This document shows, in pieces, positions 4,370 to 14,092 of a DNA stretch of 14,821 bases. The translations under genes and the position numbers were made by a program. The DNA is taken from the UHGV virus genome UHGV-1732640, one strand, 5' to 3'. Below the pieces are notes generated by a model. It was not told the origin of the DNA. It worked only from the letters and a program-made list of their open reading frames with translations, and did no database searches. Positions within the stretch are counted from its first letter, which is position 1, and the number at the start of each line of letters is the position of its first letter. The DNA comes from a virus.

Positions 4370-5877
4370 TGGCAATTCTTGATGATGTGATTGGCGTTTT
4401 TTCACCAGGATGGAAAGCGGCAAGGCTGCGTTCCCGTGCGGTGATCCAGGCTTATGAGGCCGTAAAAACGACGCGGACACACAAAGCCCGGCGGGAAAAC
4501 CGAACTGCCGACCAGTTAAGCCAGTACGGGGCCGTGTCGTTACGTGAGCAGGCCCGTTACCTTGATAACAACCACGATCTGGTCATTGGTGTATTTGACA
4601 AGCTGGAAGAACGGGTGGTGGGGAAAAACGGGATTATTGTCGAGCCACATCCGGTATTACGCAATGGGGCCATTGCCCGTGACCTGGCTGCGGAGATTCG
4701 CACCCGATGGAGTGAATGGTCTGTCAGCCCGGAAGTCACCGGGCAGTTTACCCGTCCGATGCTGGAACGTCTGATGCTGCGTACCTGGCTGCGCGATGGT
4801 GAGGTGTTTGTCCAGATGGTTTCCGGGCGCATAAACAGCCTGACGCCTTCTGCCGGTGTTCATTTCTGGCTGGAGGCACTCGAGCCGGACTTTATTCCCA
4901 TGACCAGTGATGAGAGCAACAGGCTGAATCAGGGCGTGTTTGTTGATGACTGGGGGCGTCCCGAAAAATATCTGGTGTATAAAAGTCGTCCCGTATCCGG
5001 ACGGCAGATGGAAACCAAAGAAGTGGATGCAGAGCGAATGCTGCATCTTAAATTTGTTCGCCGTCTGCACCAGATGCGCGGGACGTCTTTGTTGTCCGGT
5101 GTGCTGATCCGCCTCAGTGCCCTGAAAGAGTATGAAGATTCTGAGCTGACTGCAGCAAGGATCGCCGCTGCTCTGGGGATGTACATCCGGAAAGGCGACG
5201 GGCAGAGCTATGAACCGGATGGTAATGGCAGCAAGGATAAGGAACGCGAGCTTACCATTCAGCCAGGCATTATTTACGACGATCTGAAACCCGGCGAAGA
5301 AATCGGAATGGTGAAGTCGGATCGTCCCAATCCTAACCTTGAAACTTTTCGTAATGGTCAGTTGCGTGCCGTGGCGGCGGGCAGTCGTCTGAGTTTTTCC
5401 AGTACGGCACGCAACTATAACGGCACTTACAGCGCCCAGCGTCAGGAGCTGGTTGAATCCACTGATGGCTACCTGATCCTGCAGGACTGGTTTATTGGTG
5501 CCGTCACCCGCCCGATGTATCGTGCCTGGCTGAAACAGGCTGTGGCATCCGGTGTTATCAGGCTACCCCGCGATCTTGACCGTTCTTCACTGTATACCGC
5601 GGTGTATTCCGGACCGGTGATGCCGTGGATTGACCCTGTTAAGGAGGCTGAGGCCTGGAAAATTCAGATTCGTGGTGGAGCAGCGACAGAATCAGACTGG
5701 GTACGTGCAGGTGGTCGTAATCCGAATGATGTCAAACGTCGGCGCAAGGCCGAAATTGATGAAAACCGCACGCTGGATCTGGTATTTGATACCGATCCGG
5801 CCAGTGATAAAGGAGGCAGCAGTGCCGCAACGAAACGACAAGAGCCGCAGCACACCGACGACCAGTCCGAAGAATAA
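4369..5877 (+). CDS. Portal protein (lambda gpB family)
   Basis: 502 aa from the ATG at 4369, which overlaps the W stop (TGATG) and has GAGG 5 nt upstream; the ORF extends upstream to 4297 but without a plausible start. Segment SRLSFSSTARNY resembles lambda B MSYSTARAS; position after W. Confidence 0.88.
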   Translation: MAILDDVIGVFSPGWKAARLRSRAVIQAYEAVKTTRTHKARRENRTADQLSQYGAVSLREQARYLDNNHDLVIGVFDKLEERVVGKNGIIVEPHPVLRNGAIARDLAAEIRTRWSEWSVSPEVTGQFTRPMLERLMLRTWLRDGEVFVQMVSGRINSLTPSAGVHFWLEALEPDFIPMTSDESNRLNQGVFVDDWGRPEKYLVYKSRPVSGRQMETKEVDAERMLHLKFVRRLHQMRGTSLLSGVLIRLSALKEYEDSELTAARIAAALGMYIRKGDGQSYEPDGNGSKDKERELTIQPGIIYDDLKPGEEIGMVKSDRPNPNLETFRNGQLRAVAAGSRLSFSSTARNYNGTYSAQRQELVESTDGYLILQDWFIGAVTRPMYRAWLKQAVASGVIRLPRDLDRSSLYTAVYSGPVMPWIDPVKEAEAWKIQIRGGAATESDWVRAGGRNPNDVKRRRKAEIDENRTLDLVFDTDPASDKGGSSAATKRQEPQHTDDQSEE

Positions 5878-5890
5878 TTCCTGGTTCAGG

Positions 5891-7849
5891 ATGCAGGCTG
5901 GTCACCAGAGTGACGCGGATATTTATATTTATGACGAGATTGGTTTCTGGGGTGTTACAGCGAAGCAGTTTATCAGTGATCTGAATGCACTGGGCGATAT
6001 CACCCACATTAATCTCCATATCAATTCACCGGGTGGCGATGTCTTTGAAGGCATCGCCATTTTTAATGCACTGAAAACACATGGTGCGTCCATTACCGTT
6101 TATGTCGACGGTGTGGCGGCGTCAATGGCGTCGGTCATTGCGATGGTGGGAAACCCGGTCATTATGCCGGAAAACACCTTCATGATGATTCATAAACCAT
6201 TTGGCTTTACGGGCGGTGATGCGGAGGACATGCGCACCTATGCCGACCTGCTCGATAAGGTTGAGGCGGTTCTGTTACCCGCTTATGCACAGAAAACCGG
6301 GAAAACCACCGATGAAATTGCTGCCATGCTGGCGGATGAGACCTGGATGTCCGGTGCCGAATGTCTGGCACATGGATTTGCTGATCAGGTGACGCCAGCC
6401 GTTAAGGCAATGGCATGTATTCAGTCAAAACGTACAGAGGAATTTAAAAAGATGCCGGAATCCATTCGAAACATGATTACTCCGCCACGCAACAGTGCTC
6501 CACGCGTACAGGATGATGAACCTGCAGCCTCCCGGACGCCAGTGCAGGCAGCAGCACCCGTGGTGGATGAAAACAGTATCCGTGCGCAGGTACTGGCAGA
6601 GCAAAAAGCGCGTGTAAACGGTATTAATGATCTGTTTGCCATGTTTGGCGGGCGTTATCAGACGCTGCAGGCTCAGTGTCTTGCCGATCCTGAATGTTCG
6701 CTGGAGCAGGCCCGCGAAAAGCTGTTGAACGAGATGGGGCGCGAGTCCACGCCATCCAATAAAAATACACCGGCTCATATTTATGCCGGTAACGGTAATT
6801 TTGTGGGGGACGGGATCCGCCAGGCGCTGATGGCGCGTGCCGGATTTGAAAAAACCGAACGTGATAATGTCTACAACGGGATGACCCTGCGTGAATATGC
6901 CCGTATGTCACTGACTGAACGGGGTATTGGGGTTTCCAGTTATAACCCGATGCAGATGGTCGGTGCGGCGTTCACACACAGTACGTCTGACTTCGGTAAT
7001 ATTCTGCTGGATGTTGCGAACAAAGCCATTCTGCAGGGCTGGGAAGATGCTCCTGAAACCTATGAACAGTGGACGCGGAAAGGTCAGTTGTCTGATTTTA
7101 AAATTGCCCATCGTGTGGGTATGGGGGGCTTCAGTGCTCTGCGTCAGGTGCGTGAAGGGGCGGAATATAAATACGTCACCACCGGAGATAAACAGGCCAC
7201 TATTGCACTGGCGACCTATGGCGAGCTGTTCAGTATCACCCGTCAGGCCATTATCAATGATGATCTGAATATGCTGACCGATGTCCCGATGAAACTGGGC
7301 CGTGCGGCGAAATCCACTATTGCCGATCTGGTTTATGCCATTCTGACGTCTAACCCGAAAATCTCCACAGATAATGTAAGTCTGTTCGATAAAGCGAAAC
7401 ATGCAAACGTACTGGAGAGCGCTGCAATGGACGTGGCATCGCTGGATAAAGCCCGCCAGTTGATGCGCGTTCAGAAAGAGGGGGAGCGTCATCTGAATAT
7501 TCGTCCTGCGTTCGTACTGGTACCGACGGCGATGGAGTCTGTTGCTAACCAGGTCATTCGCTCCTCAAGTGTCAAGGGGGCTGACATTAACGCCGGTATT
7601 ATTAACCCGGTGAAAGATTTTGCGACCGTTATTGCAGAGCCTCGTCTTGATGATAACAGCCAGACCACCTTCTACCTGGCTGCGTCAAAAGGCTCCGATA
7701 CGATTGAAGTGGCTTATCTCAACGGTGTGGATACGCCATATATTGATCAGATGGAGGGCTTCAGTGTGGATGGCGTGACAACGAAAGTGCGTATTGACGC
7801 CGGTGTCGCGCCAGTTGATCACCGCGGTCTGGTGAAATGTACGGTGTAA
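5891..7849 (+). CDS. Prohead protease (ClpP-like, S14-type) fused to linker/scaffold region and HK97-fold major capsid protein
   Basis: One uninterrupted frame. N-terminal about 200 aa has ClpP-like motifs (IYIYDEIG, NSPGGDVFEGIAIFNAL, AASMASVIAMVG, MMIHKP); the C-terminal about 330 aa resembles an HK97-type major capsid protein. Start uncertain: ATG 5891 has a weak RBS, while in-frame GTG 5822 follows AAGGAGG by 5 nt. Confidence 0.85.
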   Translation: MQAGHQSDADIYIYDEIGFWGVTAKQFISDLNALGDITHINLHINSPGGDVFEGIAIFNALKTHGASITVYVDGVAASMASVIAMVGNPVIMPENTFMMIHKPFGFTGGDAEDMRTYADLLDKVEAVLLPAYAQKTGKTTDEIAAMLADETWMSGAECLAHGFADQVTPAVKAMACIQSKRTEEFKKMPESIRNMITPPRNSAPRVQDDEPAASRTPVQAAAPVVDENSIRAQVLAEQKARVNGINDLFAMFGGRYQTLQAQCLADPECSLEQAREKLLNEMGRESTPSNKNTPAHIYAGNGNFVGDGIRQALMARAGFEKTERDNVYNGMTLREYARMSLTERGIGVSSYNPMQMVGAAFTHSTSDFGNILLDVANKAILQGWEDAPETYEQWTRKGQLSDFKIAHRVGMGGFSALRQVREGAEYKYVTTGDKQATIALATYGELFSITRQAIINDDLNMLTDVPMKLGRAAKSTIADLVYAILTSNPKISTDNVSLFDKAKHANVLESAAMDVASLDKARQLMRVQKEGERHLNIRPAFVLVPTAMESVANQVIRSSSVKGADINAGIINPVKDFATVIAEPRLDDNSQTTFYLAASKGSDTIEVAYLNGVDTPYIDQMEGFSVDGVTTKVRIDAGVAPVDHRGLVKCTV

Positions 7850-9515: not shown

Positions 9516-9526
9516 AGGAGGTGGCA

Positions 9527-10270
9527 ATGACCACACCAAATCCACTGGCAAAAACGAAAGGTGCGGGAACGACGTTCTGGATGTACACCGGCAAGGGCGA
9601 TGCGTTTGCGAACCCTTTATCGGACACTGACTGGCTGCGTCTTGCGATGGTGAAGGATCTGCAACCTGGCGAAATGACCGCTGATGCAGAAGATGACACT
9701 TATCTCGATGATGAAGATGCAGACTGGAAAACGACAACCCAGGGGCAGAAATCCGTCGGTGATACTTCGGCGACGCTGGCCTGGCGTCCGGGTGACAGCG
9801 GGCAGAAAAAACTGGTTCAGTTGTTCGACTCCGGTGAAGTCTGCGCGTTTCGTATCAAATATCCCAACGGCACTGTTGATGTTTTCCGTGGCTGGCTGAG
9901 CTCACTGGGTAAAACCATTGCCTCAAAAGACGTGATGACCCGCACAGTGAAAATTAGCGGTGTGGGGCGTCCGCATCTGGCAGAGGAAGGCACTGAAACA
10001 GTGAGCGTTACCGGGCTGACGGTGGCACCGGCATCTGCCAGTGTAAAAGTGGGAGCAACCACCACGCTGACCTTTACAGTAAAACCTGACGGAGCCAGTG
10101 ACAAAGCGATCAGTGTGCATTCGACAGATCCACAGACTGCCACGGTGACCCTGAACGGGCTTGTGGCCACGGTGAAAGGCGTGAAGCAGGGCAGTGTCAG
10201 CATTGTGGGCATGACTTCTGACGGCGATTTTGTGGCCGTGGCTGCGGTGGCTGTCAGCGCCGCAGGTTAA
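9527..10270 (+). CDS. V: Major tail tube protein V with C-terminal Ig-like (Big_2-type) domain
   Basis: Near-collinear with lambda V (KGAGTT.W.Y, ANPLSD.DW.RLA.VKDL.PGE.TA, DDSYLDDEDADW, GDTS.TLAW.PG, NGTVDVFRGW.SS.GK, TRTVK...VGRP); AAGGAGG RBS 6 nt before ATG 9527. Confidence 0.92.
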   Translation: MTTPNPLAKTKGAGTTFWMYTGKGDAFANPLSDTDWLRLAMVKDLQPGEMTADAEDDTYLDDEDADWKTTTQGQKSVGDTSATLAWRPGDSGQKKLVQLFDSGEVCAFRIKYPNGTVDVFRGWLSSLGKTIASKDVMTRTVKISGVGRPHLAEEGTETVSVTGLTVAPASASVKVGATTTLTFTVKPDGASDKAISVHSTDPQTATVTLNGLVATVKGVKQGSVSIVGMTSDGDFVAVAAVAVSAAG

Positions 10271-10290: not shown

Positions 10291-10314
10291 GCCCCGGTTA
10301 TCCGGGGCTTTTTT
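10291..10314 (+). terminator. Rho-independent terminator-like hairpin after V
   Basis: GCCCCGG-TTAT-CCGGGGC stem-loop followed by TTTTTT, 21 nt after the V stop and just upstream of the G RBS. Confidence 0.55.
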
Positions 10315-10330
10315 GCAGGTGGAGAACATG

Positions 10331-10717
10331 ATGTTTCTGAAACAGGGCTCGTTTAATTATGAAAAGCAGTCCGTGGTGCTCAGTGAGCTGTCCGGGCTGC
10401 AGAGAATTGAATATCTGGCGTTTGTTCAGCAGCGAACGGCAAAGTTTGATGCCGAAGAGGGAGAACTGCCGGAGGCTGAACGACAGATTGCTTTTCTGCG
10501 GATGGGGATGGATATCAATGCCTGGCTGGTTTCCCGCTCACTGTGGAATGCGGAACAGTCTCAGGATGTTGAGACGCTTTGCGCATCCGTTATTACAACA
10601 TGGTCGTATGATGCCCTGGGAGCGGGGGCGGAGATGGTTCTGTCGCTGAGCGGTATGGGAGCCATTGAGAATGCCGGGGATTTGGAGCATGAGGTGCTGA
10701 CGCCGGAAAAGTCCTGA
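10331..10717 (+). CDS. G: Tail assembly chaperone G
   Basis: N-terminus MFLKQGSFNYEKQSVVLSELSGLQRIEYLAF parallels lambda G MFLKTESFEHNGVTVTLSELSALQRIEHLAL; GGAGA 5 nt before ATG 10331. Confidence 0.88.
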   Translation: MFLKQGSFNYEKQSVVLSELSGLQRIEYLAFVQQRTAKFDAEEGELPEAERQIAFLRMGMDINAWLVSRSLWNAEQSQDVETLCASVITTWSYDALGAGAEMVLSLSGMGAIENAGDLEHEVLTPEKS

Positions 10718-11055
10718 CGCGGGAAATGCAGTTTGTCATGCGGCTTGCCCGGGAGTTCCGGCGGGCAGACTGGCGGCGGATGCTGTCGGAAATGTCGGCC
10801 ACTGAGCTTGGTGAATGGGGCGATTATTTCCAGATGCAGAGCTTCAGTGATGTGTGGATGGATGCGCAGTTTGCCTCGCTGAAGGCATTGATCGTGAGAA
10901 TGGTGTCCGGTAGCAGTGATGCTGCGGTGGCTGATTTCAGCCTTTTACCGGAAGAGAACGGGATACCGGAGCGAACGGACGAAGAACTGATGCATCTTGG
11001 GGAAGGTATTTCCGGAGGTGTGCGTTATGGACCAGATAGCCAACCTGGTCATTGA
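10331..11055 (+). CDS. T: Tail assembly chaperone G-T fusion, predicted to arise by a programmed -1 ribosomal frameshift near 10705-10711
   Basis: The T frame is -1 relative to G and is open from 10693, overlapping the last 7 G codons. The only A-rich candidate slip site is G GAA AAG (10705-10711), against lambda G GGA AAG. The ATG at 10726 has no RBS, consistent with T being made only as a fusion. The arrangement is conserved in lambda-like tail modules. Confidence 0.6.
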
Positions 11056-14000
11056 TTTGGGGATTGATGCGGCAGAGTTTAAAAATGAAATTCCCCGTAT
11101 CAAAAACCTTCTGAATGGTGCAGCCAGCGATGCAGAACGGTCTTCTGCCCGTATGCAGCGTTTTATGGAGCGTCAGACTCAGGCCGCCCGGCAGACAATG
11201 CAGGCGGCTTCTTCGGCTGCAACAGCCGCATCCGTCCATGCGCAGACGGTGGAGAAGAGCGCACAGGCTCATGAACGCATGGCCCGCGAGGTGGAGCAAA
11301 CCCGCCAGCGTATGGAGGCACTGAGCCAGAAAATGCGCGAGGAACAGGCGCAGGCCATGGCTCTGGCGGAGGCTCAGGATAAAGCGGCTGCCGCGTTTTA
11401 TCGTCAGATTGACAGTGTGAAACAGGCCAGTGCGGGACTGCAGGAATTACAGCGTATTCAGCAGCAGATCCGACAGGCCAGAAACAGTGGCGGGATTGGT
11501 CAGCAGGATTATCTGGCGCTGATTTCTGAGGTTACGGCGAAAACCGGTGTTCTTACGCAGGCTGAGGCAGAGGCTACCCGACAGAAAGTGGCGTTTATCC
11601 GTCAGCTTAAAGAGCAGGCAACCCGCCAGAATCTTTCTTCTTCTGAGTTGCTTCGTGCTAAGGCTGCCCAGCTGGGGGTAAGCAGTGCTGCAGAAGTGTA
11701 TATCCGCAAAATGGAGCAGGCAGGAAAAGCCACGCATTCGCTGGGTCTGAAAAGTGCAGCGGCCCGCCAGGAGATAGGCGTTCTGATAGGTGAACTGGCT
11801 CGCGGCAATTTAGGTGCGCTGAGGGGATCCGGGATAACGCTGGCTAACCGTGCCGGATGGATAGACACACTGATGTCACCGAAAGGCATGATGCTGGGCG
11901 GGGTTATTGGCGGTATTGCCGCGGCCGTCTATGGTCTGGGTAAAGCCTGGTATGATGGTCAGAGGGAGGGGGAAGAATTTAACCGCCAGTTGTCGCTGAC
12001 GGGGCATTATGCCGGAGTCACTGCCGGGCAGCTGTGGACGCTCAGTCGTGCTATTTCCGGGAATGGTATTACGCAACATGCTGCAGCCGGTGCGCTGGCT
12101 CAGGTGGTGGGGAGTGGTGCATTTCGTGGAAACGATATCGGTATGGTGGCGAGAGCTGCCGCACAGATGGAGCGATCGGTTGGCCAGTCGGTCAGCGATA
12201 CCATAAATCAGTTTAAGCGGCTGAAGGATGATCCTGTAAATGCCGCGAAGGCTCTGGACAATGAGCTGCATTTTCTTACTGCCACTCAGCTTGAGCAGAT
12301 ACGCGTCCTTGGGGAACAGGGGCGGTCCAGTGATGCGGCACGGATAGCCATGTCTGCACTGGCAGAGGAAACCGGTCGGCGTACTGCGGATATTGATAAT
12401 AACCTCAATGCGCTGGGCAGTACGCTGAAGTATCTGTCTGATTTATGGAGTCGTTTCTGGGATGCGGCCATGAATATTGGTCGTGAAGACTCGCTGGATG
12501 AACAGATTTCCGCTTTACAGGAGAAAGTGTCGCGGGCGAAAAGACTCCCCTGGACGGCATCATCTTCTCAGGTTGAGTACGATCAGCAGCGTCTTAACGA
12601 GCTTCAGGAGAAAAAACGCCAGAAGGATTTGCAGGATGCAAAAGAGCAGGCAGAGCGGAATTATCAGGAGCAACAGAAACGCCGTAATGCTGAAAATGCT
12701 GCACTGAACCGGATGAATGAAACGGAAGCAGCACGACATCAGCGTGAAATTGCGCGTATTAATTCCATGCAGTACGCCGATCAGGCTGTCAGGGATGCGG
12801 CGATACAACGTGAAAATGAACGTTACGAGAAAGCCCTGGCATCCGGTAAGAAAAAAACACGCGAACCCCGTAATGATGAGGCCACCCGGTTATTGCTGCA
12901 GTACAGTCAGCAACAGGCACAGGTGGAAGGACAGATTGCTGCTGCCAGACAGTCAGCAGGCATTGCCACGGAAAGGATGACAGAAGCGCATAAACAGCTT
13001 CTGGCTCTGCAGCAGCGCATCAGCGACCTGGACGGGAAAAAACTGACGGCAGATGAAAAGAGTGTGCTGGCCCGTAAAGATGAACTGATTCAGGCACTGA
13101 CGCTGCTGGATGTAAAACAGCAGGAGCTTCAGAAACAGACGGCACTCAACGAGCTGAAGAAAAAAACAATTCAGCTGACCAGTCAACTGGCTGAAGAAGA
13201 GCGCGCTCAGCGTCAGCAACATGACCTGGATATCGCCACGGTGGGTATGGGTGATCAGCAGCGGCAGCGATATCAGGTACAACTGAGTCTTCGCCAGAAA
13301 TACCAGCAACAGCTGGAGCAGTTGAGGCGGGATAGTGAGCAGAAAGGAACATATAACACGGATGACTACAGAAAGGCCGAGCAGGCGCTGACGGAGAGCC
13401 TGAACCGACAACTGAATGAGAATCGCCGTTACTGGCAACAGCTTGAAGTTGTGCAGGGTAACTGGAAAAACGGAGTCCTGCGTGCATTTCAGGATTTTAC
13501 CGTGGATGCAGATAATACGGCAGGAACAGCAGAACAGGGGTTCTCGTCAGCCTTCAGCAACATGGGAAATGGCCTGGCAACTTTTGTCACTACCGGCAAA
13601 CTCAATTTCAAATCCTTCACCTCTTCTGTGCTGTCAGATATGGCGAAAATCCTGGCGCAGGCAACCATGATGAAATCGATAAAAGGGATTGGCAGTGTAC
13701 TGGGATTTGATCTCAGCAGCCTTTCCCTGAATGCCAATGGGGGGATTTATCAGTCTGCTGATTTGAGTCGTTACAGTGGCACGGTGGTTAACCGTCCGAC
13801 GTTTTTTGCTTTTGCAAAAGGCGCGGGTGTGATGGGGGAAGCGGGACCTGAAGCCATTCTGCCACTGCGTCGTGGTGCTGACGGTAAGCTGGGGGTTGTG
13901 GCGGATATTGGTGGTTCAGGTATGGCGATGTTTGCCCCGCAGTACAACATCGAGATCAATAACGATGGCACGAACGGGCAGATAGGTCCGGCTGCCCTGA

Positions 14001-14092
14001 AGGTGGTTTATGACCTCGGGAAAAAAGCGGCAGCGGACTTTATACAACAGCAGGCCCGTGATGGTGGTCGGTTAAGTGGAGCATATCGGTAA
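11027..14092 (+). CDS. H: Tail tape measure protein H
   Basis: 1021 aa from ATG 11027 (GGAGG 8 nt upstream; the ORF-track start at 10997 is a TTG). N-terminus LVIDLGIDAAEF resembles lambda H LVVDLSLDAARF; C-terminus NNDGTNGQIGPAALKVVYD...RDGG is nearly identical to lambda H; long Q/E/R/A-rich central region. Confidence 0.92.
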   Translation: MDQIANLVIDLGIDAAEFKNEIPRIKNLLNGAASDAERSSARMQRFMERQTQAARQTMQAASSAATAASVHAQTVEKSAQAHERMAREVEQTRQRMEALSQKMREEQAQAMALAEAQDKAAAAFYRQIDSVKQASAGLQELQRIQQQIRQARNSGGIGQQDYLALISEVTAKTGVLTQAEAEATRQKVAFIRQLKEQATRQNLSSSELLRAKAAQLGVSSAAEVYIRKMEQAGKATHSLGLKSAAARQEIGVLIGELARGNLGALRGSGITLANRAGWIDTLMSPKGMMLGGVIGGIAAAVYGLGKAWYDGQREGEEFNRQLSLTGHYAGVTAGQLWTLSRAISGNGITQHAAAGALAQVVGSGAFRGNDIGMVARAAAQMERSVGQSVSDTINQFKRLKDDPVNAAKALDNELHFLTATQLEQIRVLGEQGRSSDAARIAMSALAEETGRRTADIDNNLNALGSTLKYLSDLWSRFWDAAMNIGREDSLDEQISALQEKVSRAKRLPWTASSSQVEYDQQRLNELQEKKRQKDLQDAKEQAERNYQEQQKRRNAENAALNRMNETEAARHQREIARINSMQYADQAVRDAAIQRENERYEKALASGKKKTREPRNDEATRLLLQYSQQQAQVEGQIAAARQSAGIATERMTEAHKQLLALQQRISDLDGKKLTADEKSVLARKDELIQALTLLDVKQQELQKQTALNELKKKTIQLTSQLAEEERAQRQQHDLDIATVGMGDQQRQRYQVQLSLRQKYQQQLEQLRRDSEQKGTYNTDDYRKAEQALTESLNRQLNENRRYWQQLEVVQGNWKNGVLRAFQDFTVDADNTAGTAEQGFSSAFSNMGNGLATFVTTGKLNFKSFTSSVLSDMAKILAQATMMKSIKGIGSVLGFDLSSLSLNANGGIYQSADLSRYSGTVVNRPTFFAFAKGAGVMGEAGPEAILPLRRGADGKLGVVADIGGSGMAMFAPQYNIEINNDGTNGQIGPAALKVVYDLGKKAAADFIQQQARDGGRLSGAYR

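What the first reader, a model, noticed from the sequence alone, without database searches (positions are those of the whole stretch)
10693..10728. G-T programmed -1 frameshift site with a non-canonical slippery heptamer
The T frame is -1 relative to G and is open only from 10693, so the shift must occur within the last 7 codons of G. The only candidate is G GAA AAG (10705-10711), which differs from lambda's G GGA AAG at the P-site codon. That leaves an A-site-only lysine slip (AAG to AAA), which would be expected to be inefficient, in line with the low GT:G ratio needed for tail assembly. No obvious downstream stimulatory structure stood out by eye.
Basis: partly seen in the sequence, partly recalled or inferred. 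Interest (0 to 1): 0.5.

Follow-up and report, generated by a model that had tools for sequence, protein, structure and literature searches.

The report
Lambda-type G-T tail chaperone frameshift site
This is the ordinary programmed -1 ribosomal frameshift that lets lambda-like phages make a small amount of a fused G-T tail-assembly protein, and its G_GAA_AAG slip sequence, though different from lambda's, is the commonest one in this phage family and is already annotated in phage N15.

Summary
G (10328/10331-10717) ends 25 nt after the -1 frame opens (10693), and G_GAA_AAG (10705-10711) is the only slip-prone motif in that overlap. The window is an mEp460/cdtI-like lambdoid prophage found in 1848 of 5426 complete E. 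coli genomes. G and T match the Pfam families of lambda gpG and gpT, and they sit between the major tail and tape-measure genes.

The heptamer lies at exactly the position of lambda's proven G_GGA_AAG, and the T frame aligns without gaps from the slip-site lysine in 21 enterobacterial clusters. It is not unusual. Among 23 protein clusters built from 331 loci, 17 use G_GAA_AAG and only 2 use lambda's form. The N15 GenBank record already marks GGAAAAG as the slippery sequence.

Base 1 stays G although the codon holding it changes amino acid (Pro, Ala, Leu, Val). tRNA-Glu can also re-pair on GGA through a central G·U pair.

No conserved downstream structure was found. An SD-like GAGGTG sits 9 nt upstream but is clade-specific. 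ATG 10726, which databases use as the T start, is not conserved in the family.

Verdict: already known and of low interest. The efficiency of this heptamer appears unmeasured in the literature I could search.

The parts
9521..10270 (+). Major tail protein gene (lambda V homologue). It is the upstream neighbour that defines the V-G-T-H gene order.
   Evidence: Pfam Phage_TTP_12 9e-67 plus Big_2. PGAP calls it 'phage tail protein'.
10291..10316 (+). Rho-independent terminator-like hairpin (GCCCCGG-TTAT-CCGGGGC followed by a T run) between V and G. It is context only and not part of the frameshift signal.
   Evidence: Terminator scan. Annotated as a terminator in the mEp460 and Ayreon records. 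A comparable stem-loop is annotated in N15.
10328..10717 (+). Gene G, the tail assembly chaperone. It is 129 aa from ATG 10328, or 128 aa from ATG 10331 as called by PGAP. The zero-frame stop is TGA 10715-10717.
   Evidence: Translation. Pfam Phage_TAC_2 3.1e-39. PGAP 'gpG: phage tail assembly chaperone G'.
10690..10692 (+). Last stop codon (TGA) of the -1 frame upstream of the G stop. It sets the 5' limit of the window in which the shift can occur.
   Evidence: Frame analysis.
10691..10696 (+). SD-like GAGGTG, complementary to the 16S rRNA 3' end (CACCUC), ending 9 nt before heptamer base 2. It is a candidate upstream stimulator and is specific to this clade.
   Evidence: It meets the GAGG/AGGKG and 6-17 nt criterion of PMC4066793. 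GAGG is kept in 61 of 61 clade sequences, while 10695 is T or C. Only 8 of 22 clusters have any SD-like sequence in range, against a 17% background.
10705..10711 (+). Slippery heptamer G_GAA_AAG. The zero frame reads ..CCG GAA AAG.. and the -1 frame reads GGA AAA G. It is the site of the -1 shift.
   Evidence: It is positionally homologous to lambda G_GGA_AAG and to the annotated N15 slippery sequence GGAAAAG. It is conserved in 17 of 23 clusters. Major-allele frequency is 0.86-1.0 across the heptamer against 0.55 upstream.
10711..11055 (+). T segment read in the -1 frame after the shift. The first -1 codon is GTC 10711-10713 and the stop is 11053-11055. The predicted GT product is join(10331..10711, 10711..11055), 241 aa.
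   Evidence: Pfam Phage_tail_T 6.8e-15. Gapless alignment from the slip-site lysine across 21 clusters, with motif K-x4-E-x2-F-x3-LAREFxRPDWRxML.
10726..10728 (+). ATG used by PGAP and GenBank as an independent T start. It lies 8 nt after the G stop, has a poor Shine-Dalgarno sequence (GGGAA directly adjacent), and is not conserved outside this clade.
   Evidence: Annotations. The equivalent codon is CTG in Gifsy-1 and lambda. The first Met of the T frame falls at residue 5, 9, 15 or 23 depending on the cluster.
11027..14092 (+). Tape measure gene (lambda H homologue). It is the downstream neighbour, and its start overlaps the end of T.
   Evidence: Pfam TMP_2 4.4e-49 and Tape_meas_lam_C 3.6e-21. 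PGAP annotation.

Best explanation
A small fraction of the ribosomes translating G shift back one nucleotide at G_GAA_AAG (10705-10711). At that moment GAA (Glu) is in the P site and AAG (Lys) is in the A site. They then continue in the T frame from GTC 10711 and make a 241-aa G-T fusion (...VLTPEK|VLTREMQF...). All other ribosomes stop at TGA 10715 and make G. As in lambda, G and GT then act together as tail assembly chaperones on the tape measure protein and the tail tube protein.

Shown here: the gene order, the homology, the frames, the positional identity with the proven lambda site, and strong nucleotide-level conservation of the heptamer.

Inferred: the slip is a two-tRNA slip. tRNA-Lys(mnm5s2UUU) moves from AAG to its better-matched AAA. 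tRNA-Glu(mnm5s2UUC) re-pairs near-cognately on GGA (G-C, G·U, A-U).

Also inferred: no RNA structure is needed, and the efficiency is in the low-percent range or below.
For: 1. Anatomy. The order is V-G-T-H. G matches PF06894 (3e-39) and T matches PF06223 (7e-15), and T is in the -1 frame.
2. Position. The heptamer is at the position of lambda's G_GGA_AAG. Lambda and window T frames align without gaps from the slip lysine (GKVFDGELSFALKLAREMGRPDW against GKVLTREMQFVMRLAREFRRADW).
3. Comparative data. 331 loci gave 219 distinct G-T DNAs and 23 clusters at 85% aa identity. G_GAA_AAG is in 17 clusters, from E. coli, Salmonella, Citrobacter, Proteus and Providencia elements with only 33-56% G identity to the window. 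The other forms are all recognised slip sequences (G_GGA_AAG, G_GGA_AAA, A_AAA_AAG, C_CCA_AAA).
4. Synonymous-site signal, treating clusters as independent. GAA rather than GAG is used 17/17 times (P about 1e-4). The minor codon AAG rather than AAA is used 17/17 times (P about 6e-9). Base 1 is G in 15 of 16 four-fold codons that encode four different amino acids (P about 2e-5). The flanks are variable.
5. Prior annotation. N15 record AF064539 marks GGAAAAG as 'slippery sequence for -1 translational frameshift'. The Gifsy-1 T gene is annotated 'by translational frameshifting'.
6. No conserved start for T. In 9 clusters the first Met lies after the conserved LAREFGRPDWR motif.
7. Precedents.
- G_GA as the X_XX part of used heptamers, and A_AAG-based sites such as G_CGA_AAG (PMC5009743).
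- tRNA-Glu re-pairing from GAA to GGA, discussed for the heptamer GGGGGAA, which accounts for about a thousand motif instances in SEA-PHAGES frameshift annotations (PMC10885494).
- Lambda shifts about 4% of the time, and the G:GT ratio is critical (PMC3296357; PMC5009743).
Against: There is no direct protein evidence for GT in this clade or, in the literature I could search, for any G_GAA_AAG phage.

The heptamer has a mid-codon G·U in the P site, which should lower efficiency relative to lambda.

A_AAG alone is near background without a stimulator in reporter tests, and no conserved stimulator was found.

The clusters share ancestry, so the P values are overstated.

The Glu-Lys dipeptide sits in a weakly conserved E-x-x-x-x-E-K tail of G. 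Part of the conservation could therefore be at the protein level.
Confidence: 0.85

Rival explanations
1. One reading: the same G-T -1 frameshift at this site, but by slippage of the A-site tRNA-Lys alone (AAG to AAA, a Z_ZZN tetramer site like IS1222 G_CGA_AAG). The P-site tRNA-Glu would not re-pair usefully.
For: A_AAG is the invariant core in 20 of 22 clusters (AAA in the other two). A_AAG is by far the most shift-prone tetramer in E. coli, and natural sites with non-slippery P codons exist (A_CGA_AAG, G_CGA_AAG). Two natural variants weaken P-site re-pairing but keep an intact T frame: A_GAA_AAG in L220 and G_GCA_AAG in L214.
Against: Base 1 is G in 20 of 21 enterobacterial representatives across codons for Pro, Ala, Leu, Val and Met (P about 2e-5 for the four-fold codons). 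An A-site-only slip gives that base no role. GAA to GGA keeps two Watson-Crick pairs and one G·U. Without a strong stimulator the tetramers as a group give about 0.15% against a 0.11% background, and no such stimulator is conserved.
Confidence: 0.25
2. T is made as a free 109-aa protein by independent initiation, or by termination-reinitiation, at ATG 10726, as annotated by PGAP and GenBank. Under this reading the frameshift is not used.
For: All records of this clade annotate T from ATG 10726. The ATG lies only 8 nt after the G stop, within reach of translational coupling. It is invariant within the clade.
Against: The ATG is clade-specific: Gifsy-1 and lambda have CTG there, and many clusters have no Met before residue 23, beyond the conserved LAREFxRPDWR motif. 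The T-frame residues between the slip site and the ATG are conserved (for example the invariant Glu). There is no usable Shine-Dalgarno sequence (GGGAA abuts the ATG). The heptamer shows synonymous-site selection that this model does not explain. In lambda, the T domain works by being tethered to G (PMC5009743).
Confidence: 0.07
3. A dnaX-like stimulated site. The upstream SD-like GAGGTG (10691-10696) pairs with 16S rRNA in the elongating ribosome and raises shifting on an intrinsically weaker heptamer. This modifies the best explanation for this clade rather than replacing it.
For: There is a perfect 6-nt complement to the anti-SD, ending 9 nt before heptamer base 2. That is inside the experimentally stimulatory 6-17 nt range (PMC4066793). 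GAGG is retained in 61 of 61 clade sequences. Sister clades (Gifsy-1, Citrobacter, some Proteus) have AGGA at 10-13 nt.
Against: Only 8 of 22 clusters have any SD-like motif in range, against a 17% background, and several of the eight are related. N15, phi80, mEp213 and lambda have none. The sequence also encodes Glu-Val in an acidic, purine-rich tail where such motifs arise easily. Clade diversity is too low to show selection.
Confidence: 0.2
4. The frame change happens at the nucleic-acid level. Either RNA polymerase slips on the A run, or a subpopulation of genomes carries an extra A, giving an in-frame G-T.
For: Three public assemblies carry GGAAAAAG (A5) at this exact spot. That fuses G and T in frame and gives exactly the predicted GT protein.
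Against: The run is only four A residues, well below the lengths known to support transcriptional slippage (own knowledge). The A5 form is seen on 3 contigs, against over a thousand contigs carrying the separate genes. One of the three also has a broken V gene, which suggests read errors. The conserved G at base 1 and the conserved AAG have no role in this model.
Confidence: 0.03

Closest known systems
Bacteriophage lambda G / G-T programmed -1 frameshift (slip site G_GGA_AAG)
   Same: The gene order V-G-T-H and the Pfam families are the same. T is in the -1 frame without a conserved start. The slip site is at the identical position with a gapless T alignment from the slip lysine. No stimulatory structure is evident.
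   Different: One base differs in the heptamer: base 3 is A instead of G. The P-site codon is therefore GAA (Glu) and not GGA (Gly), and re-pairing in the -1 frame has a central G·U instead of a third-position wobble. The G-T overlap is 25 nt instead of 64 nt, and the zero-frame stop is one codon after the site instead of five. G identity to lambda is only 33%.
Phage N15 genes 14/15 (GenBank AF064539) and Gifsy-1 STM2596/STM2595
   Same: The heptamer GGAAAAG is identical and at the homologous position. N15 annotates it explicitly as the slippery sequence, and Gifsy-1 annotates T as made by translational frameshifting. Gifsy-1 also shares the ...CCG GAA AAG TCC TGA ending.
   Different: G identity is 33% to N15 and 56% to Gifsy-1. 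Neither has an ATG at the position of window ATG 10726 (Gifsy-1 has CTG). N15 has no SD-like sequence in range and Gifsy-1 has AGGA rather than GAGGTG.
A_AAG tetramer sites with a non-slippery P codon (IS1222 G_CGA_AAG; Bacillus subtilis cdd A_CGA_AAG)
   Same: All rely on E. coli-type tRNA-Lys(UUU) moving from AAG to AAA. The P-site codon is not of the XXX type (PMC5009743).
   Different: Here the P-site tRNA can still re-pair (GAA to GGA), and base 1 is under selection. No strong stimulator of the kind the tetramers needed in reporter tests was found here.
G_GA-type heptamers of RNA viruses (e.g. G_GAU_UUU) and GGGGGAA in mycobacteriophage tail chaperone genes
   Same: A GGA codon in the -1 frame is accepted by a tRNA that read GAN in the zero frame. 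For GGGGGAA it is the same tRNA-Glu GAA to GGA re-pairing with G·U (PMC5009743; PMC10885494).
   Different: The hosts and translation systems differ. In GGGGGAA the Glu tRNA is the second (A-site) tRNA of the pair, whereas here it is the P-site tRNA.
E. coli dnaX (A_AAA_AAG with an upstream SD-like sequence and a downstream hairpin)
   Same: The A-site codon is AAG. This clade has an SD-like sequence at a stimulatory distance upstream.
   Different: No supported downstream hairpin is present. The SD-like element is not conserved in the family. The product is an extended fusion protein, not a truncated one.

Membership tests
Lambda-type G/GT tail assembly chaperone frameshift | Two short ORFs between the major tail protein gene and the tape measure gene | tested here: met
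   V 9521-10270, G 10328-10717, T frame 10693-11055, H 11027-14092.
Lambda-type G/GT tail assembly chaperone frameshift | The upstream ORF is homologous to gpG and the downstream ORF to gpT | tested here: met
   PF06894 3.1e-39 and PF06223 6.8e-15, both above the curated cut-offs.
Lambda-type G/GT tail assembly chaperone frameshift | The downstream ORF is in the -1 frame, overlaps the end of G and has no conserved initiation site of its own | tested here: met
   The -1 frame is open from 10693 and overlaps G by 25 nt. The first Met of the T frame is at residue 5, 9, 15 or 23 depending on the cluster. This clade does have an ATG (10726), but it is not conserved.
Lambda-type G/GT tail assembly chaperone frameshift | A slip-prone heptamer in the overlap at the conserved position | tested here: met
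   G_GAA_AAG at 10705-10711 is homologous in position to lambda G_GGA_AAG. It is the majority form of the family.
Lambda-type G/GT tail assembly chaperone frameshift | A G-T fusion protein made at a few per cent of G and required for tail assembly | not testable with these tools
   This needs protein detection and genetics. It is known for lambda only (PMC5009743; PMC3296357).
Canonical X_XXY_YYZ slippery heptamer | Bases 1-3 are identical (XXX), so the P-site tRNA keeps its first two pairs after the shift | tested here: not met
   Bases 1-3 are GGA. The second codon position becomes G opposite U35 of tRNA-Glu, a G·U pair rather than a Watson-Crick pair (tRNA identity from established knowledge).
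Canonical X_XXY_YYZ slippery heptamer | Bases 4-6 are identical (YYY), with the A-site tRNA cognate in the -1 frame | tested here: met
   Bases 4-7 are AAAG. AAG to AAA is read by the same tRNA-Lys (PMC5009743).
Z_ZZN tetramer (A_AAG) frameshift sites | In-register A_AAG | tested here: met
   A_AAG at 10708-10711 is in register.
Z_ZZN tetramer (A_AAG) frameshift sites | Dependence on a strong nearby stimulator (pseudoknot or hairpin) | tested here: not met
   The fold of 10712-10811 has z = -0.96. The consensus fold of 21 cluster representatives is -2.6 kcal/mol. There is no Rfam match.
dnaX-type stimulated -1 frameshift | An SD-like sequence 6-17 nt upstream of the motif | tested here: inconclusive
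   GAGGTG is present at 10691-10696, 9 nt from base 2. Only 8 of 22 clusters have any such motif, against a 17% background.
dnaX-type stimulated -1 frameshift | A stable hairpin 5-8 nt downstream | tested here: not met
   No structure beyond the shuffled expectation, and none conserved.

The most novel reading that the evidence does not exclude
G_GAA_AAG may be functionally distinct from lambda's heptamer rather than a weaker copy of it. Both slipping tRNAs (Glu in P, Lys in A) carry mnm5s2U34. Frameshift level, and hence the G:GT ratio and tail yield, would then depend on the host 2-thiouridine (Tus/MnmA/IscS) pathway through two tRNAs instead of lambda's one. In this clade the level may be further set by the upstream GAGGTG and by the stop codon one codon downstream. 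This could explain why most of the family keeps G_GAA_AAG instead of the 'better' G_GGA_AAG, which is one mutation away.
Probability: 0.15. Interest if true: 0.4.

Novelty: already known. Interest (0 to 1): 0.15.

Why it matters
There are two practical points.

1. Annotation. PGAP and every GenBank phage record I inspected for this very common E. coli prophage clade (1848 of 5426 complete genomes) annotate T as a free-standing 109-aa protein starting at ATG 10726. The comparative evidence says the real product is a 241-aa G-T fusion, join(10331..10711, 10711..11055).

2. The textbook example is the minority form. The lambda heptamer G_GGA_AAG is a minority form in its own family, and most relatives use G_GAA_AAG. 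That heptamer fails the X_XXY_YYZ rule, so search tools restricted to canonical heptamers do not consider it. The genome screen of PMC4066793, for example, examined only X_XX.Z_ZZ.N patterns.

The mechanism, gene family and heptamer are all documented already. A specialist would not be surprised.

Tried and rejected
- Literature searches for the heptamer (GGAAAAG, G_GAA_AAG, 'GAA AAG') with frameshift or phage terms found nothing relevant. Xu et al. 2004 and Licznar et al. 2003 are not held. I therefore could not check whether the efficiency of this heptamer was ever measured.
- The search for related loci with the 7-sequence G alignment failed on genome contigs. On viral contigs it returned only near-identical loci. 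Diversity came from separate scans seeded with the Gifsy-1, Providencia and N15 G proteins, plus a 3-sequence alignment. The lambda-seeded scan returned only 99-100% identical copies.
- A downstream stimulatory structure is rejected. Single-sequence folds are no better than shuffles, there is no consensus structure and there is no Rfam hit. A permissive 'hairpin within 4-10 nt' rule finds long hairpins in every G+C-rich sequence and does not discriminate.
- An upstream SD-like stimulator as a family feature is rejected (8 of 22 clusters against a 17% background). It is kept only as a clade-specific possibility.
- A sequencing error in the heptamer is rejected, because it is invariant in 61 distinct clade sequences.
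- Other slip sites in the overlap are rejected, because none is in register.
- The A5 variant was considered as evidence for slippage at the nucleic-acid level. It is rare and at least partly error-associated.
Full report
WHAT IS IN THE SEQUENCE

The window is the late (structural) region of a lambdoid prophage. The 1-kb stretch around the finding is 97-99.9% identical to 17 phage records, including mEp460, cdtI, Ayreon, Tritos and phi458. It is present in 1848 of 5426 complete E. coli genomes.

ORF listing, Pfam scans and the PGAP annotation of an identical chromosome give the gene order. In order these are terminase, portal, a ClpP-protease/capsid fusion, head-tail genes, major tail protein V (9521-10270), G, T and tape measure H (11027-14092).

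G runs from ATG 10328 (or 10331) to TGA 10715-10717 and matches Phage_TAC_2, the lambda gpG family, at 3e-39. The -1 frame carries a TGA at 10690-10692, is open from 10693 to 11055, and matches Phage_tail_T at 7e-15.

The overlap is 25 nt. In the register of G it reads GTG CTG ACG CCG GAA AAG TCC TGA. G_GAA_AAG at 10705-10711 is the only in-register slip-prone motif.

POSITIONAL HOMOLOGY WITH THE PROVEN LAMBDA SITE

Lambda reads ...GCG GGA AAG TGT... at the end of G. After the shift, lambda gives GK-VFDGELSFALKLAREMGRPDW and the window gives (E)K-VLTREMQFVMRLAREFRRADW. The two align without a gap from the slip-site lysine. The two heptamers differ by one base: base 3 is A in the window and G in lambda.

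THE HEPTAMER ACROSS THE FAMILY

I collected 331 loci from the phage database, IMG/VR and one-genome-per-species bacterial contigs. They reduce to 219 distinct G-T sequences and 23 clusters at 85% G identity. The slip-site forms are listed below; the remaining cluster is the broken 5' part of a disrupted Gifsy-like G in L157 and has no slip site.

- G_GAA_AAG: 17 clusters. These include the window clade, Gifsy-1, N15-like, phi80, mEp213, and Citrobacter, Proteus and Providencia elements.
- G_GGA_AAG: 2 clusters (lambda and one Stx2a phage group).
- G_GGA_AAA: 1 cluster.
- A_AAA_AAG: 1 cluster.
- C_CCA_AAA: 1 cluster (a Vibrio phage).
- Single variants A_GAA_AAG and G_GCA_AAG occur inside two of the G_GAA_AAG clusters.

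So the 'non-canonical' heptamer is the rule in this family and lambda is the exception.

It is also already on record. GenBank AF064539 (N15) has a misc_feature 'slippery sequence for -1 translational frameshift' whose bases are GGAAAAG. The Gifsy-1 record describes its T homologue as made 'by translational frameshifting'.

By contrast, all records of the window's own clade that I inspected annotate T as a separate gene. PGAP, mEp460 and Tritos start it at ATG 10726, and Ayreon starts it further downstream.

EVIDENCE THAT SELECTION ACTS ON THE NUCLEOTIDES

In a gapless alignment of 21 enterobacterial cluster representatives anchored on the site, the major-allele frequency is 0.86-1.0 at the seven heptamer positions. 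It is 0.55 on average over the 36 nt upstream and 0.64 at third positions of the T frame downstream.

The G proteins share only 33-56% identity with the window's G. The lysine of the site is the only invariant residue in the last 19 residues of G.

The synonymous choices are telling.
- Glu is GAA in 17 of 17 clusters, against a background of 58% in these genes.
- Lys is the minor codon AAG in 17 of 17 clusters, against a background of 33%.
- The base before GAA is G in 15 of 16 four-fold degenerate codons, although the codon encodes Pro, Ala, Leu or Val in different clusters (background 42%).

Treating clusters as independent, the probabilities are about 1e-4, 6e-9 and 2e-5. Shared ancestry inflates these figures, but the amino-acid turnover at the preceding codon shows repeated substitution with G retained.

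MECHANISM

The conserved first G has no coding role. Its codon is four-fold degenerate, and the -1 codon GGA is never decoded as such in a tandem slip. Its conservation is expected only if the P-site tRNA re-pairs after the shift.

E. coli tRNA-Glu (anticodon mnm5s2U-U-C; established knowledge) reading GAA would re-pair on GGA with G-C, G·U and A-U. tRNA-Lys(mnm5s2UUU) moves from AAG to the better-matched AAA.

Published work supports each element.
- G_GA is a recognised variant of the X_XX part of used heptamers (PMC5009743).
- The same review lists A_AAG-based sites such as G_CGA_AAG in IS1222 (PMC5009743).
- The same GAA-to-GGA re-pairing with G·U is discussed for the heptamer GGGGGAA, which accounts for about a thousand motif instances in SEA-PHAGES frameshift annotations (PMC10885494).

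In E. coli reporters, the Z_ZZN tetramers without a stimulator averaged 0.147% against a 0.112% background. A_AAG reaches 5.6% only with a strong pseudoknot (PMC4066793). Lambda shifts about 4% of the time (PMC3296357).

The two natural variants with weakened P-site pairing (A_GAA_AAG, G_GCA_AAG) show that the site may tolerate it, or they may be errors or defective prophages.

STIMULATORS

The 100 nt downstream fold no better than shuffles (z = -0.96). A fold centred on the site gives z = -0.20. The consensus fold of 21 cluster representatives is essentially unstructured at -2.6 kcal/mol. Rfam has nothing.

It is fully complementary to the 3' end of 16S rRNA and ends 9 nt before heptamer base 2, inside the 6-17 nt range shown to stimulate -1 shifting (PMC4066793).

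GAGG is kept in all 61 distinct sequences of the clade, while 10695 varies between T and C. However, only 8 of 22 clusters have any SD-like motif in range, against 17% of arbitrary in-frame positions in these genes. N15, phi80, mEp213 and lambda have none. I keep it as a clade-specific possibility at about 0.2.

RIVALS

Independent translation of T from ATG 10726 is what the databases imply. That ATG is 8 nt past the G stop, so reinitiation is conceivable. It corresponds to CTG in Gifsy-1 and lambda, though, and the first Met of the T frame lies at residue 5 (this clade only), 9, 15 or 23 in different clusters. In nine clusters that is beyond the conserved LAREFxRPDWR motif. The T-frame residues between the slip site and the ATG are conserved, and there is no usable Shine-Dalgarno sequence. 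A free T may be made in addition, but it cannot be the family's mechanism.

Slippage at the nucleic-acid level is unlikely on a run of four A. An exact-sequence look-up did find the predicted 241-aa GT fusion as a called gene in three public assemblies. All three carry GGAAAAAG, one extra A at the slip site. One of them also has a broken V gene, so read error is likely for at least that one. These are 3 contigs against more than a thousand carrying the separate genes.

COMPARISON AND NOVELTY

The locus meets every testable defining feature of the lambda-type G/GT frameshift: gene order, homology, the -1 overlap, no conserved T start, and a slip site at the conserved position. It fails the strict X_XXY_YYZ definition at base 3.

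It resembles A_AAG tetramer sites in its A-site half but lacks their stimulator. It resembles dnaX only in having an upstream SD-like sequence.

The same heptamer at the same position is already annotated in N15, and the family and mechanism are textbook. The finding is therefore already known.

What my analysis adds:
- The lambda heptamer is the minority form in its own family.
- Base 1 of G_GAA_AAG is under synonymous-site selection.
- Public annotation of this very common E. coli prophage clade misses the fusion, which should be join(10331..10711, 10711..11055).

One modestly interesting open point is that both slipping tRNAs here carry the 2-thiouridine modification (on tRNA Lys, Glu and Gln; PMC3296357). 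Loss of that modification pathway raised lambda G-T frameshifting in that study, which attributed the effect to tRNA-Lys. The G_GAA_AAG majority may therefore respond differently to host sulfur and tRNA-modification state. That is speculation.

Noticed in passing
L331, L332, L333 (Logan assemblies ERR13600735, SRR29329189, ERR13600634), locus positions about 1876-1883; equivalent to window 10705-10711: Three public assemblies carry GGAAAAAG (five A instead of four) at the slip site. This fuses G and T in frame and encodes exactly the predicted 241-aa GT protein. L331 also has a split major tail gene, so a homopolymer read error is likely for at least that one. A real mutation would give a GT-only, probably tail-defective prophage.
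   Followed up: partly
window 10291-10316: A strong rho-independent terminator-like hairpin (7 G-C pairs followed by a T run) lies between the major tail gene V and G. It is annotated in mEp460 and Ayreon, and a comparable stem-loop is annotated at the same place in N15. It could lower expression of G, GT and H relative to V.
   Followed up: partly
window 10691-10696: An SD-like GAGGTG, perfectly complementary to the 16S rRNA 3' end, ends 9 nt before heptamer base 2, within the range reported to stimulate -1 frameshifting. It overlaps the -1 frame stop TGA 10690-10692. It is conserved within the clade (GAGG in 61 of 61) but not across the family.
   Followed up: yes
L220 and L214 (IMG/VR contigs, N15-like G-T loci), slip-site position: Natural heptamer variants A_GAA_AAG and G_GCA_AAG occur with intact T frames of 123 and 121 codons. 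Both weaken P-site re-pairing while keeping A_AAG. They would be useful natural test cases, or they may be errors or decaying prophages.
   Followed up: no
L008, L099, L103, L162, L163, L166 (Providencia/Proteus-type loci), slip site: In these clusters the zero-frame stop codon TAG follows the heptamer immediately (G_GAA_AAG_TAG or G_GGA_AAA_TAG). In the window and Gifsy-1 it is one codon later, and in lambda and N15 five codons later. The T frame stays gapless throughout, so the G tail length varies while the slip position is fixed.
   Followed up: partly
L157 (IMG/VR contig, Gifsy-1-like): The G homologue is broken by an internal frameshift (two tblastn segments in different frames), while its G-T junction is intact. 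It is probably a decaying prophage or an assembly error.
   Followed up: no
window 5630-7849: A single long ORF encodes a ClpP-like prohead protease fused to the major capsid protein (PGAP name). It overlaps the end of the portal gene. This is typical of this prophage group and unrelated to the finding.
   Followed up: no
window 10726-11055 and database records NC_019716, OV696610, NZ_CP019273: Public annotation of this clade, including PGAP in RefSeq E. coli genomes, lists T as an independent 109-aa protein with no ribosomal-slippage join. The Ayreon record starts T even further downstream, at the position of window 10792.
   Followed up: yes
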